Position numbers and translations under genes: made by a program. A stretch of DNA of 64,000 nt, from assembly GCA_964016885.1 (NCBI GenBank), contig OZ024753.1:40424001-40488000 (forward strand), written 5' to 3'. Below, piece after piece: positions 13,160-61,320 of this stretch; within the stretch, counting starts at the first letter, position 1, and every line of letters begins with the position of its first letter. Source of the stretch: Eledone cirrhosa (Eukaryota). The notes under the pieces are model-generated. The model did not search any database. It was not told the DNA's origin and saw only the letters and a list, made by a program, of their open reading frames with translations.

Positions 13160-13368
13160 TAACGAAGGAAATGTGGTAAGGAATCAGGTGGACCATAACG
13201 CACCAAAGTACTCAATACTTAGGGTAGTAGAGTGGGTAATAGGAACGAGTAGGACCCCGACGGCTGAGCTCAAGCCGTTTCGACGGCTAATTCTGGACTC
13301 AGAATTAGCCGTCGAATTAGCCGTCGAAACGGCTTGAGCTCAGCCGTCGGGGTCCTACTCGTTCCTAT
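13160..13368 (-). mobile_element. Family B palindromic HHR-derived element, full length
   Basis: ~80-bp unique tail plus a ~130-bp palindrome (13238-13368), with (TA)n on both sides. Confidence 0.9.
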
Positions 13369-13390
13369 ATATATGTATATAAACATATAT

Positions 13391-13465
13391 AAAGGGTGAC
13401 CCCAAAAATGCATGCACAATTTTACAGCATTCAAATATATGTGTATACAGTTTTTGGGACACACT
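13391..13465. mobile_element. Degenerate Tc1/mariner-type MITE
   Basis: agggtgacccc..aaaaatg / cagtttttgggacac, a homolog of 25244-25321. Confidence 0.55.
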
Positions 13466-13677
13466 CTCTCTCTCTCTCTCCCTCTCTCTCTGTATATATA
13501 TATATATATATATATATATATATACATATATATACCCTCTTCTACTATATCAAGCGTTAAACTAATATAATTTGTCATTGTTCTGTGTCGTTGGTTTACT
13601 GTATATATATATATATATATATACATTCAATGTTGTGCAGTGCCTATCAAAAATGACGGGTTTTATAGTGAAATATC

Positions 13678-13860
13678 ATTGTTTCTACTTTAGGCACAAA
13701 GCCAGCAATTACCCAGTGCATTACTGGTACTTTATTTTATCGACCCCGTAAGGATGAAAGGCAAAGTCAACCTCGGCGGGATTTGAACTCAGTTCATAAA
13801 GGGACGTAACTGTGCTGCAAAGCATGGCGTCTGACCCTCTACCGATACTGCCAATCCACC
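13678..13860 (-). mobile_element. Major SINE
   Basis: Full consensus match. Confidence 0.9.
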
Positions 13861-13934
13861 AGTGAAATATAATATTCATGGTTTCTTGAGTGCTACATGC
13901 TATGTAGAGGTGCATGACATCTCCACTTACTTCT

Positions 13935-14420
13935 TGCTACCACAACCGCCACAACCACCACACAAAAAACTACCACCACCACCACCTCCATCATAATCAC
14001 TAATACTACCACCACCACCACCACCACCATCATGATCACTAATACTACTACCACAACCGCCACAACCACCACAGAAAAACTACCACCACCACCATCACGA
14101 TCTCTACTACTACTACCACAACCGCCACAACCACCACAGAAAAACTACCACCACCAGCACCAACATTACGATCCCTACTACTACTACTACTACTACTACT
14201 ACTACTACTACCAGCACCACCAGCACCACTACCAGCACCACCACCACCACCACCACCACCACCACCACCACCACCACTACTACTACTACTACTACTACTA
14301 CTACTACTACTACTACTACTACTACTACTACTACTACTACCACGATCACCATCATGATCCCTACTACTACCACCACCATCACGATCACCACCACCACCAC
14401 CACCTTCGCAACCACCAACA
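13935..14420. repeat. (CAC)n/(TAC)n compound repeat
   Basis: Direct reading. Confidence 0.9.
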
Positions 14421-15449
14421 TCATCTCTACACTCGCCCCATCTCCATAACCATTCACTCTTCATTCTTCAGCATTTTTTTCATCCCTCAACTGTTGTATT
14501 ATCTTGATTTAATACCAACGAATTGTATACATCATATTACATATACATCATATTACATATACATTATATTATATATACATTATATTATATATACATTATA
14601 TTATATATACATTATGTTTTCCATAGATTATATATTCTATATATTTCTGTTTCAAACTATAAAATCCATCCCACCTGTTGTTTGTATTCTTTTATTATTC
14701 GTCATTGTAAATAACTCGGTCAGCTTTCCTTTGATGTTCTCATTTCCATACATCCGCGTGCACACATACACATATAACAGTCATAAAACATGACACACAC
14801 ACACACACACTCACACATAACACTCATAAAACATGACACACACTCCACTCACACACACACAAACACACACACACACACTCTACTCACACACACACACACA
14901 CACACACACATATATAACAGTCATAAAACATGTCACACACACACACTCTACTACCACACACACAAACACACACACACACACTCTACTCACACACACTCAC
15001 ACATAACACTCATAAAACATGAAACACACACACTCCACTCTCACACACACAAACACACACTCCACTAGCAGACACTGACACACACATATCATAGATATGC
15101 ACACACATATACACACGCATACACACCCAACACACATATGCATACACATGCATACACACATAACACACATAACATACGTATACACATGCATACACGCACA
15201 ACACTCATATACAAACACAGAAACACATGCATACACACACAACACACATAAAACATAACACGTACACACATACTCCACTCGCACACACAGACACACAAAA
15301 CACACATATGCATACACATATACACACGCATACACACACAACACAAATATGGACACACACATATACAACACTCTTTGAAATTCTTTTCACTTTTCTATCG
15401 CCATGCAGGCTGAGGGGTTAGTACACCACTAGTGTTATATTTTACTGAT

Positions 15450-57787: not shown

Positions 57788-58571
57788 CATCATCATCATC
57801 ATCATCATCATCATCATCATCCGGCGGCCTCACCCGACATCGACTCAACAAGTGATCTCACGTGGGTCTGTCGTTCATTGCCGTTGCCAAGTCTTGGATT
57901 TCAATACCAGAATCTCTGGAGATGACATCGGAGAAGGAGAGCTTGCGCCCCCTGTTATTAGTGACTGCTTGTGGTTTCCAAAGCACTAATGGGGACACAG
58001 CCTCGTAGGTGGCACGATGGCAGTGGCCAGCAAATCAGGATAGGAGAGCTTGCGCCCCCTGTTATTAGTGACTGCTTGTGGTTTCTAGAGCACTAATGGG
58101 GACACAGCCTCGTAGGTGGCACGATGGCAGTGGCCAGCAAATCGGGATAGGAGAGCTTGCGCCCCCTGTTATTAGTGACTGCTTGTGGTTTCTAGAGCAC
58201 TAATGGGGACACAGCTTCATAGATGGCACGATGGCAGTGGCCAGCAAATCGGGATAGGAGAGCTTGCGCCCCCTGTTATTAGTGACTGCTTGTGGCTTCT
58301 AGAGCACTAATGGACAAACAGCCTCATAGATGGCACGATGGCAGTGGCCAGCAAATCGGGATAGGAGAGCTTGCGCCCCCTGTTATTAGTGACTGCTTGT
58401 GGCTTCTAGAGCACTAATGGGGACACAGCCTCATAGATGGCACGATGGCAGTGGCCAGCAAATCGGGATAGGAGAGCTTGCGCCTCCTGTTATTAGTGAC
58501 TGCTTGTGGCTTCTAGAGCACTAATGGGGACACAGCCTCATAGATGTCACGATGGCAGTGGCCAGCAAATC
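57788..58571 (-). mobile_element. RTE-clade LINE 3' fragment containing ~6 x 107-bp tandem units
   Basis: Reverse complement translates FAGHCHRA..WKP..RGRK..DSG..DLATAMNDRPT and ends in a (GAT)n tail. Units start at 57936, 58043, 58150, 58257, 58364 and 58471. Confidence 0.85.
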
Positions 58572-58999
58572 TTACTCTCCTTTTACGTACTGACAGTATA
58601 CAAACTATATTGTCGCTTCGTAATCTTTCGTAGGTATATTTTATTGTTGATGTGGTCAACTGGGAAATTCATAAAACCGTCCAATACGTTATTCCTGACA
58701 GGTATAGAATTTCACTATTCTGGCAAACGACAAAAATAAAAATTAAGTCTACATTACCCACGTCAATAACATTTTTTTATGGTCTAATAAAAACGGATGC
58801 AGATAGCCACTCTATATCAAATTGTCTATATATACATGTATATATACATGTATATATACATGTATATATACATGTATATATACATGTATATATACATACG
58901 TACATAGATGCACAGAAGCATACATGATGGCAACTTATATTTCCATTTCTTACATGTCTTCGTCTCCATCCTAATTTATGGGCTATATTGAGCACATTA

Positions 59000-59040
59000 T
59001 TGATGATTTCATTCGAATGAAACAGTTCTAGTCCTGTAGA
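59000..59040 (+). ncRNA. Family F HHR core remnant
   Basis: tTGATGA-tTTCattcGAAt-GAAACAG-ttctagtc-CTGTA followed by (GA)n. Helix I is absent. Confidence 0.6.
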
Positions 59041-59300
59041 GAGAGAGAGCGTGAGAAAGAGGGCAAGATAGATAGATAGAGAGATGGAGAGAGAGACAGA
59101 GATGGATAAAGAGAGAGAGAGAGACAGAGATGGATAAAGAGAGAGAGAGAGACAGAGATAGATAGAGAGAGAGAGATGGAGAGAGAAACAGAGATAGATA
59201 GATCGAGAGATGCAGAGAGATAGAGATAGAGAGAGAGAGCGCGTGAGAAAGAGGGCAAGATAGAGAGATGGAGAGATGGAGAGAGAGACAGAGATAGATA

Positions 59301-59564
59301 TGTTTCTTTATTAGCCACAGAGGCACAAAAGAAGGGGACAAATACAAAGGGGGAAGTTTACATAGAATAAAAACGTGTAAAATATTATCACAAATGTAAT
59401 TTAAAAATTAGTCGATTTTCCCCAATAGGGGAAGACATTACATATGGGTAACACATACCCCCGAAAAAAAAATGTGCAACCCTCATCTCCAGGAGTACGA
59501 AGAGTTTGTACTCCTTTCCTCTCCTCCTCTTTTTCCTCAACCTACAGGCTGATATAGAGAGAAG
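59301..59564 (-). mobile_element. Tx1-like LINE 3' end within (GATA)n/(GA)n
   Basis: Highly similar to 42039-42300, with agatagata on both sides. Confidence 0.85.
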
Positions 59565-61110
59565 ATAGATAGATAGATAGAGAGAGTGGGAAAGATAATA
59601 GATAGATAGGTGGGGAGAGAGAGAGAGATAGAGAGAGAGATTGTTAAAGATAGATAGATAGATAGATAGATAGAGAGAGAGAGTGGGAAAGATAAAAGAT
59701 AGATAGATAGATGGGGAGAGAGAGAGAGAGAGAGAGCGAGAGAGAGAGAGATATTGTTAAAGATAGATAGATAGAGAGAGTGGGAAAGATAATAGATAGA
59801 TAGATGGGGAGAGAGAGATAGATAGAGAGAGAGAGAGAGAGATTGTTAAAGATAGATAGATAGGAAAGAGACAGAGAGAGAGATAGAGAGAGAGAGAGAT
59901 TGTTAAAGATAGATAGATAGGAGAGAGAGAGAGAGAGAGAGAGAGAGAGAGAGAGATTGTTAAAGATATATAACGATCTACAAGTATTCAGTTACGTAAA
60001 TGTGATTAAATGTTGAAAGATATAATCACGAGTAAAACCAAGAGAATAAAAGTAAATGTAATAATGTAGAGAGTTTCAACGTCAGAGCGGAACAGTCTAG
60101 AAATCAATTAGATATCGTATTGTAATAGATATTGTTATTTTGTGCAGTGGAGCGTCTATAACGGATTATCTCTATAGAGGATAGATACCTGATACAGAGT
60201 AGCTAGGCTTGGACTTCCTCTATTGCTGAAACATACACACACACACAGAGACACAGGCACATACACACAGAGACACAGGCACACACACACACAGACACAG
60301 GCACAGACACAGAGACACAGGCACACACACACAGAGACACAGGCACAGACATACACATACATACACAGAGACACAGGCACACACACACAGAGACACAGGC
60401 ACAGACACAGAGACACAGGCACACACACAGAGACACAGGCACACACTCTCACACACATAAACACGGAGACAGACACACACTCTCTCTCACACACACACAC
60501 ACACATGCACAGACGCAGACGCACACGTACACAGGCACACACTCTCACACATATACACACACACACAGACGCAGACACACACGGAGACAGACACAGGCAC
60601 ACACTCTCACACACATACACACACACACCTGCACAGACGCAGACACACACGGAGACACACAGAGACACAGGCACACACTCTTACACACACATGCACAGAC
60701 GCAGACACACACGTACACAGACACACACGGAGACACACAGAGACACAGGCACACACTCTCACACACATACACACACACACACACATGTACAGACGTAGAC
60801 ACACACGTACACAGACACACACTCTCTCACACACACATGCGCAGACACAGACACACACGTACACAGACACACACGGAGACACACACTCTCACACACACAC
60901 ACATGCGCAGACACAGACACACACGTACACAGACACACACTCTCACACACACACACATGCATACACATATATAGGCACGTATACACACACAGGAGTTGAG
61001 ACTGATAGATAGTATTAGCAACTAGAAAGACCAATGGCAACATCGTTTCCTCGGTCCGATTTGACGAAAGTCGATCGACTGTCGATCTATATATATATAT
61101 ATATATATAT

Positions 61111-61320
61111 ATAGGAACGAGTAGGACCCCGACGGCTGAGCTCAAGCCGTTTCGACGGCTAATTCTGGACGCTAATTCTGAGTCCAGACTTAGCCGTCGA
61201 AACGGGTTGAGCTCAGCCGTCGGGGTCCTACTCGTTCCTATTACCCACTCTACTACCCTAAGTATTGAGTACTTTGGTGCGTTATGGTCCATCTGGTTCC
61301 TTACCACATTTCCTTCGTTA
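61111..61320 (+). mobile_element. Family B element, full length
   Basis: Palindrome plus a tail ending cttcgtta(TA)n. Confidence 0.92.

What the first reader, a model, noticed from the sequence alone, without database searches (positions are those of the whole stretch)
13160..61320. Family B: palindrome arms covary per copy and replace the 5' half of the ribozyme
Eight copies occur at 3799, 11163, 13160, 18627, 27028, 35661, 49080 and 61111. One arm reads CGAA-ACGGCT-tgagctc-AGCCGT-C-GGGGTC, an HHR 3' half with a GUC site. Where CUGANGA should be, there is a mirror copy of that 3' half. The two arms within a copy match each other (gaacgagtagg, gaacaagtaag, gaaaaggtatg, gaaaaagttta, gaaaagattca variants) better than they match other subfamilies. 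Apexes show small duplications or deletions (13301-13326, 61159-61190, 35708-35730). Inference: the hairpin is synthesised anew at insertion by fold-back at helix II, with polymerase slippage.
Basis: partly seen in the sequence, partly recalled or inferred. Interest (0 to 1): 0.78.

Follow-up and report, generated by a model that had tools for sequence, protein, structure and literature searches.

The report
Double-primed Penelope retrotransposon mini-palindromes
These short palindromes in TA repeats are cut-short, head-to-head copies of the front end of a young Penelope-like retrotransposon, likely made when both cut DNA strands copy the same RNA back to its 5' end, which is likely either the promoter start or the ribozyme cut.

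Summary
The repeats are real, with at least 19,551 exact copy ends genome-wide. Their parent is a 3,542-bp tandem Penelope-like element with an intact 717-aa RT/GIY-YIG ORF and Hydra-clade motifs. It carries a complete type I hammerhead fold with core UUGAGAA (U3-A8), not CUGANGA. Insertions consist of two inverted arms starting at fixed sites, +61 and +144, beside (TA)n. Arms pair by locus (130-138 of 138 concordant per site). Simple fold-back is not supported: the tail-less arm reaches further 5' as often as the tailed one (26 vs 27 of 65) and can be kilobases longer. Arm ends pile up at -4/+1, an Inr-like site 29 nt below a TATA-like box, and sharply at +42, the predicted ribozyme cut (both arms in 18 of 39 unambiguous junctions). 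The two ends are coupled. Best model: both target strands prime on one sense RNA and the two cDNAs are end-joined. The ribozyme 5' half is missing because it lies upstream of the inferred start site. No RNA data were available.

The parts
61111..61170 (-). Tail-less arm, parent positions +61 to +2 (subfamily A), abutting (TA)n
   Evidence: BLAST to parent, 100% to A-type parent
61171..61180 (.). 10-nt junction insert, copy of +5..+14 in reverse
61181..61324 (+). Tailed arm, +1 to +144: helix II 3' strand, GAAA, helix III, predicted cut after +41, helix I 3' strand, 83-nt tail, then (TA)n
13156..13299 (-). Tailed arm, +144 to +1
13300..13313 (.). 14-nt templated junction insert (+5..+18)
13314..13368 (+). 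Tail-less arm, +7 to +61
27028..27092 (-). Tail-less arm, +61 to -4 (subfamily B); reaches 10 nt further 5' than its partner
27089..27226 (+). Tailed arm, +7 to +144, 4-nt overlap with the other arm
35661..35720 (-). Tail-less arm, +61 to +2
35730..35850 (+). Tailed arm, +24 to +144, after a 9-nt insert at 35721-35729
49076..49193 (-). Tailed arm, +144 to +26
49189..49247 (+). Tail-less arm, +3 to +61, longer toward the 5' side than its partner
11161..11206 (-). Tail-less arm, +61 to +16
11207..11226 (+). Tail tip only, +125 to +144; shares no sequence with the other arm
3798..3867 (-). Single tail-less arm, +61 to -9; no partner; passes the -4 wall by 5 nt
18630..18771 (.). Older diverged two-armed relative with a partial tail

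Best explanation
The palindromes are 5'-truncated, head-to-head insertions of a young Penelope-like retrotransposon with Hydra-clade motifs, and they likely form when its enzyme cuts both strands of a (TA)n tract and each strand primes reverse transcription on the same sense RNA. One strand starts at +144 and the other at +61 (fixed ends shown; that they are RT start sites is inferred from the lizard element PAc); the 83 nt between them is the tail. Both cDNAs run toward the RNA 5' end and are joined by microhomology, bluntly, or through short inserts (junctions shown; enzyme unknown). Length is set by the RNA end (inferred): the element's own promoter start at -4/+1 gives the dominant ~205-bp palindrome lacking the ribozyme 5' half; the hammerhead cut at +42 gives a ~125-bp form in about 1% of copies; read-through RNA gives long arms. 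The short copies lack TATA box and ribozyme core, so they are likely dead on arrival.
For: Parent: the tail continues into unique sequence in 72 of 100 listed hits (hand count); 3,542-bp tandem unit with a 717-aa ORF; 58 of 150 scored hits are 100% identical over the first 140 aa. Fixed ends: 23,288 exact +144/(TA) and 19,551 exact +61/(TA) junctions, controls 0; long insertions end at the same two sites. Wall: in 100 consecutive tail ends on C1, 65 are two-armed; 47 tailed and 52 tail-less arm ends lie in -4..+8 and 2 of 130 pass -4. Symmetry: tail-less arm further in 26, tailed in 27, equal in 12. Ribozyme wall: of 39 junctions with an untemplated insert, 21 tail-less and 24 tailed arms end at +42, against 1 and 0 at +41; the parent folds as a type I hammerhead with its cut after +41. 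One RNA: mixed start-site/cut-site copies are at most about 64, against 2,000-2,800 expected if arms were independent (rough estimate); 0 of 21 long junctions have the partner at the wall (hand count). PAc cuts and extends both strands and has two internal RT starts (PMC11167929).
Against: No RNA evidence could be obtained, so the start site rests on TATA/Inr-like motifs and the wall alone. The parent fold is no more stable than shuffles (z -0.15) and parents are 92% identical, so helix covariation was not shown. Subfamily A has a C3-A8 mismatch in the core yet gives 4 of 30 cut-site copies. The copy at 3799 runs to -9. 35 of 100 tail ends are one-armed, long or complex. Later deletion could create some of the short asymmetries. 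Coupling could also come from two RNAs of one source locus. Pfam and PDB give no hit for the ORF; clade rests on motifs, not a tree.
Confidence: 0.78

Rival explanations
1. Snap-back: one cDNA from +144 runs to the RNA end or to helix II, folds back and copies itself to +61; asymmetries arise by later deletion.
For: Explains arm concordance and coupled ends. Short templated inserts at apexes look like brief snap-back. The commonest apex is a 4-nt loop.
Against: Tail-less arm longer in 26 of 65, with no shared sequence in 7 clean cases, several 99-100% identical to the parent; kilobase tail-less arms with short tailed partners (L173/174, L185; -547/+53); the loop occurs in both orientations (16 vs 10); 21 of 30 asymmetric copies have the tailed arm short.
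Confidence: 0.08
2. Two cDNAs made on two separate RNA molecules from one source locus (one per subunit of a dimer), otherwise the same pathway.
For: PAc is predicted to be a dimer (PMC11167929); avoids displacing one cDNA by the other; L154 shows a jump to a different subfamily within one insertion.
Against: Mixed-end copies are about 30-fold rarer than independence predicts and 0 of 21 long junctions have a partner at the wall; only a source locus making nearly one RNA type would hide this.
Confidence: 0.09
3. An inherited palindromic non-autonomous element (MITE-like or SINE-like) with arms homogenised by gene conversion.
For: High copy number and a fixed overall layout; some junctions repeat the mirror sequence upstream of the loop.
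Against: Apex differs copy by copy within near-identical arms; only 5 rare variants are shared by both arms against 200 arm-to-arm differences, so no ongoing conversion; a continuous series links short to full-length copies at the same two ends.
Confidence: 0.03
4. Self-priming on an antisense template, as proposed for rotifer Penelope elements (PMC3846280).
For: Published reading of palindromes at inverted junctions.
Against: The +42 wall is the sense-strand ribozyme cut; arms are often not nested.
Confidence: 0.02

Closest known systems
Hydra-clade Penelope-like elements (Craig et al. 2021, PMC8557442; includes Hydra-1_Obim)
   Same: Single ORF with C-terminal GIY-YIG, RW[K/R], DKT, CxCx5C linker, CxxC and CxH around the EN end, (TA)n targeting, hammerhead near the element end, inverted 5'-truncated copies.
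   Different: Unit is 3.5 kb against <3 kb typical; tail 83 nt against 30-40; hammerhead core U3-A8 with a long loop II holding TATA/Inr-like motifs, unlike the CUGANGA cores listed for Hydra elements, and unlike the listed Hydra-1_Obim ribozyme; most copies are ~205-bp palindromes.
Poseidon element PAc of Anolis (Frangieh et al. 2024, PMC11167929)
   Same: Two internal RT start sites bounding the tail, downstream of the hammerhead; both target strands cut and extended in vitro.
   Different: There both strands use the same start sites without preference, the start is not homologous to the target, and no RNA-seq read ended at the ribozyme cut; the passages read do not explain inverted insertions. 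Here each insertion has one +61 and one +144 end, both at TA dinucleotides, and a genomic wall at the cut.
L1 twin priming (recalled, no call)
   Same: Second target strand primes on the same RNA and gives an inversion joined by microhomology.
   Different: In L1 the two cDNAs cover different RNA segments and the second site is variable; here both sites are fixed and the cDNAs overlap, giving a palindrome.
Non-LTR retrozymes (bioRxiv 10.64898/2026.07.22.740005)
   Same: Short non-coding derivatives of Penelope pLTRs with type I hammerhead sequence.
   Different: Retrozymes are head-to-tail tandems with a complete ribozyme per unit; these are head-to-head and lack the core.

Membership tests
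EN+ Penelope-like element (parent) | Single ORF with RT followed by C-terminal GIY-YIG endonuclease | tested here: met
   717-aa ORF with FDI (253), YRDD (348), VIY (591), YIG (606); Atlas top hits 0.99 carry PF26215, others GIY-YIG/RVT_1; Pfam itself 0 hits
EN+ Penelope-like element (parent) | Tandem or partial-tandem copies forming pLTRs, inverted truncated copy, one-sided tail | tested here: met
   arrays of 3,542-bp units with inverted partners; tail +62..+144
EN+ Penelope-like element (parent) | Hammerhead motif in the pLTR | tested here: met
   three-way junction with UUGAGAA/GAAA/GUC; U3-A8 variant is reported in PLEs (PMC4209133)
Hydra clade | RWK motif, DKT, CxCx5C linker, CxxC and CxH at EN end, no CCHH | tested here: met
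   RWR 37, DKT 117, CNCPDRSIC 572, CNLC 670, CKH 698; the only CxxC lies after the YIG versus description; RWR instead of RWK
Hydra clade | Insertion into (TA)n | tested here: met
Hydra clade | Placement in the Hydra clade of the RT tree | not tested
   No reference PLE proteins were fetched into the session
Active hammerhead ribozyme | Self-cleavage after C17 | not testable with these tools
   Indirect only: arm ends peak at +42
Active hammerhead ribozyme | Covarying helices | tested here: inconclusive
   12 parent variants, 92% identical; pair counts not run
Non-LTR retrozyme | Head-to-tail tandem units each with a complete type I hammerhead | tested here: not met
   window copies are head-to-head and lack the core
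MITE | Fixed internal sequence between terminal inverted repeats inherited from a master copy | tested here: not met
   per-copy apex, one-sided tail, continuity with an RT-encoding parent

The most novel reading that the evidence does not exclude
About 20,000 young copies record the Penelope insertion reaction directly: a dimeric enzyme primes both strands of a TA break at two fixed sites on one RNA, and the palindrome apex maps that RNA's 5' end. The +42 class would then be genomic evidence that a Penelope hammerhead cuts in vivo and that the cut RNA is a template. The promoter sits inside loop II, so only read-through transcripts carry a whole ribozyme.
Probability: 0.6. Interest if true: 0.75.

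Novelty: new variant of a known kind. Interest (0 to 1): 0.62.

Why it matters
How Penelope-like elements make inverted, tailed insertions is called open by Craig et al. [quoted passage not shown] 2024 found no reads ending at the cut. This family gives sharp, countable predictions for both questions (ends at +61, +144, -4/+1, +42) and has many intact, near-identical ORFs. It also shows that MITE-looking palindromes in TA-rich animal genomes can be retrotransposon by-products. Four searches found no paper stating this two-primer, one-RNA model; the library lacks most subscription journals, so it may be in print elsewhere.

Tried and rejected
Patterns for a CTGANGA parent next to the arm: 0 hits. 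Rfam on the window: 0 hits. Pfam and PDB on the ORF: 0 hits. A GIY-YIG family search and 20 long-frame loci did not lead to the parent; only short arms matched there. Sequencing runs: no RNA holder listed; contigs of two runs, one labelled a second organism, carry the element and strand-switch joints but cannot show starts. Earlier findings of this scan: none returned. A cap-copied extra base at the wall was considered but not counted, as it cannot be told from snap-back microhomology. RT stalling at helix II was rejected by reasoning: a stall would fall at the helix entry near +18, not in the loop. In one search my haplotype site list was off by one at two sites, so only the per-column table is used. 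The ORF is absent from the window. Left out of the 21 long junctions: L319 (both arms at the wall), L335 (foreign piece), C1:18847006 (old 70% piece).
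Full report
Observation. Five are two-armed palindromes with a tail on one side, one is an older diverged relative, 3799 is a single arm and 11163 is an arm joined to the tail tip. The window lies in a 3.0-Gb assembly of 1,796 contigs. No call names the host; my guess from recall is a cephalopod, untested. Thirty best matches were 95-100% identical in the arms but differed at the apex in nearly every copy.

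Finding the parent. Patterns with CTGANGA next to the arm gave no match, and junction copies did not show such a core upstream (100 listed of 182). Asking what follows the tail when TA repeats do not, 72 of 100 listed hits (of 475) continued into one unique sequence (hand count). It belongs to a 3,542-bp unit found in tandem arrays, with a 717-aa ORF starting at +231, where +1 is the A of the common apex. The ORF has RT motifs and a C-terminal VIY-YIG endonuclease, and the motifs RWR, DKT, CxCx5C, CxxC and CxH, which match the Hydra clade as described in section 11 of PMC8557442 (read whole section; supplement sheet). Pfam and PDB gave no hit; the Atlas returned clusters at 0.99 carrying PF26215 on 25-38% of members. 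Clade placement is by motif only. 58 of 150 scored genomic hits are identical over the first 140 residues, so the family is young.

The ribozyme. In the parent, -56..+53 folds as a type I hammerhead: helix I, core UUGAGAA, long helix II, GAAA, helix III, cut after C+41 (z -0.15, so the fold energy is not itself evidence). Subfamilies have UUGAGAA, UUGAUAA or CUGAGAA. The U3-A8 core is known from a PLE (PMC4209133, passages). Inside loop II lie a TATA-like box at -29 and two pyrimidine-A Inr-like sites at -4 and +1 (sequence; promoter role inferred; TATA plus Inr in a pLTR is described in PMC3846280, passages).

Anatomy of insertions. Short and long insertions end at the same two positions, +144 and +61, next to TA repeats and in opposite orientation. 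Exact junction counts are 23,288 and 19,551, with reversed-pattern controls of 0. I took the first 100 tail ends on contig C1 without regard to apex. 65 are two-armed with a junction gap of at most 40 nt; 35 are one-armed, long or complex. Among the 65, 47 tailed and 52 tail-less arms end in -4..+8, 43 have both there, and 2 of 130 ends pass -4. Junctions are 27 microhomology, 24 insert, 14 blunt.

Arms pair by locus. In 138 two-armed insertions from all loci then held (a mixed, query-biased set), four diagnostic sites agree between arms in 138, 136, 137 and 130 cases against 113, 84, 59 and 53 expected; allele frequencies are the same in both arm classes; 5 rare variants are shared by both arms against 200 arm-to-arm differences. 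One clade of tail-less arms is rejected on a random 40 of the 138 (p-AU 7.65e-6). So the palindrome is set at insertion and then decays.

Not fold-back. A cDNA that snaps back can only give a tail-less arm nested in the tailed one. The tail-less arm reaches further 5' in 26 of 65, the tailed arm in 27, equal in 12; in 16 the excess is 10 nt or more (two of these are parse artefacts of internal deletions, one is double-tailed) and 7 clean cases share no base. Long insertions include a >12-kb tail-less arm with a 287-bp partner (L173/174) and 5.2 kb with 1.1 kb (L185). Among 30 loci of the 385 strongly asymmetric copies, the tailed arm is the short one in 21. Later deletion may explain some short cases but not these long ones without extra steps.

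A second wall at the ribozyme cut. A pattern for very short palindromes gave 803 hits. All first 100 listed were fetched and parsed. In 39 with an untemplated insert, where ends are unambiguous, 21 tail-less and 24 tailed arms end at +42 and both do in 18; at +41 the counts are 1 and 0. Eight more are blunt joins compatible with +42. The pattern allowed ends from about +30 to +45, so it does not favour +42 over +41. Another 33 are joined through 6-8 nt of helix III homology. Cut-site copies are 13 of 37 in the subfamily with the U3-A8 core and 4 of 30 in the mismatched one (Fisher p 0.05), weak support only. Since a hammerhead cuts only the sense strand, this class points to a sense template and against the antisense self-priming idea of PMC3846280.

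One RNA. If arms came from independent RNAs, about 209 both-at-cut copies imply 2,000-2,800 copies with one arm at the cut and one at the start-site wall; at most about 64 are seen (5 of 30 loci scaled to 385; rough). In 21 long head-to-head junctions the partner is never at the wall (hand count; p 2e-12 at a 0.72 base rate; many of these were selected for holding the ORF). Two RNAs from one source locus remain possible.

Mechanism. Shown: fixed ends, inverted layout, TA targets, two walls, symmetry, coupling, junction types. From literature: a PLE protein cuts and extends both strands and starts internally at two sites bounding the tail (PMC11167929, parts 1-2 of 4 read). Inferred: both target strands prime on one RNA at +144 and +61, the longer cDNA displaces or follows the shorter, both run to the 5' end, and host end-joining or template jumps link them. 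The ribozyme 5' half is absent because promoter-started RNA begins 3' of it; only read-through RNA from tandems holds a whole ribozyme, and its cut product gives the +42 class. No RNA run was listed, so the start site is unconfirmed.

Novelty. Inverted tailed insertions, TA targeting and ribozymes are known for these elements (PMC8557442, passages). Searches for the two-primer model found only the PAc paper or nothing relevant (listings only for other papers). The bioRxiv retrozyme paper (part 1 and passages) treats head-to-tail units; its supplements were not seen. Verdict: a new variant of a known kind, whose copies make two open questions directly testable. Interest 0.62.

Noticed in passing
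window 2843 (+), 6987 (-), 29520 (-): CTGA-N-GA ... GAAAC motifs of other repeat families, probably minimal hammerheads of other Penelope-like elements.
   Followed up: no
L172:8171-9989: A 55-bp tandem array (over 30 copies, runs off the locus) made from ORF positions 1755-1812 sits at the 5' end of a tandem of full units: a minisatellite born at a truncation point.
   Followed up: no
G000:C9:21963017-21963097; C1:80881079-80881117: 14-nt apex segment reiterated several times in a row, suggesting repeated template jumps at the RNA end.
   Followed up: no
L204 (C1:4946904), L284 (C1:23089543): Runs of 13 or more T just upstream of -3, as if the RT stuttered on the U-run at the RNA 5' end.
   Followed up: partly
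L154; L307 (C1:4720366): Insertions with the tail on both arms; L154 also has a third partial copy from another subfamily.
   Followed up: partly
L145/L146/L179, L184, L187, L190: Short head-to-tail partial tandems whose units start at +1..+7 or +42, consistent with template jumps from the same RNA ends.
   Followed up: partly
genome-wide: 10,597 first-look GIY-YIG candidates, some in open frames of 800-1,100 aa: other Penelope-like families are abundant.
   Followed up: no
window 27251-27420 and 35601-35647: Another dispersed repeat that often neighbours TA tracts.
   Followed up: no
window 61335-61400: Sequence after the 61111 copy resembles a tRNA-derived SINE B box (recalled motif, not tested).
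   Followed up: no
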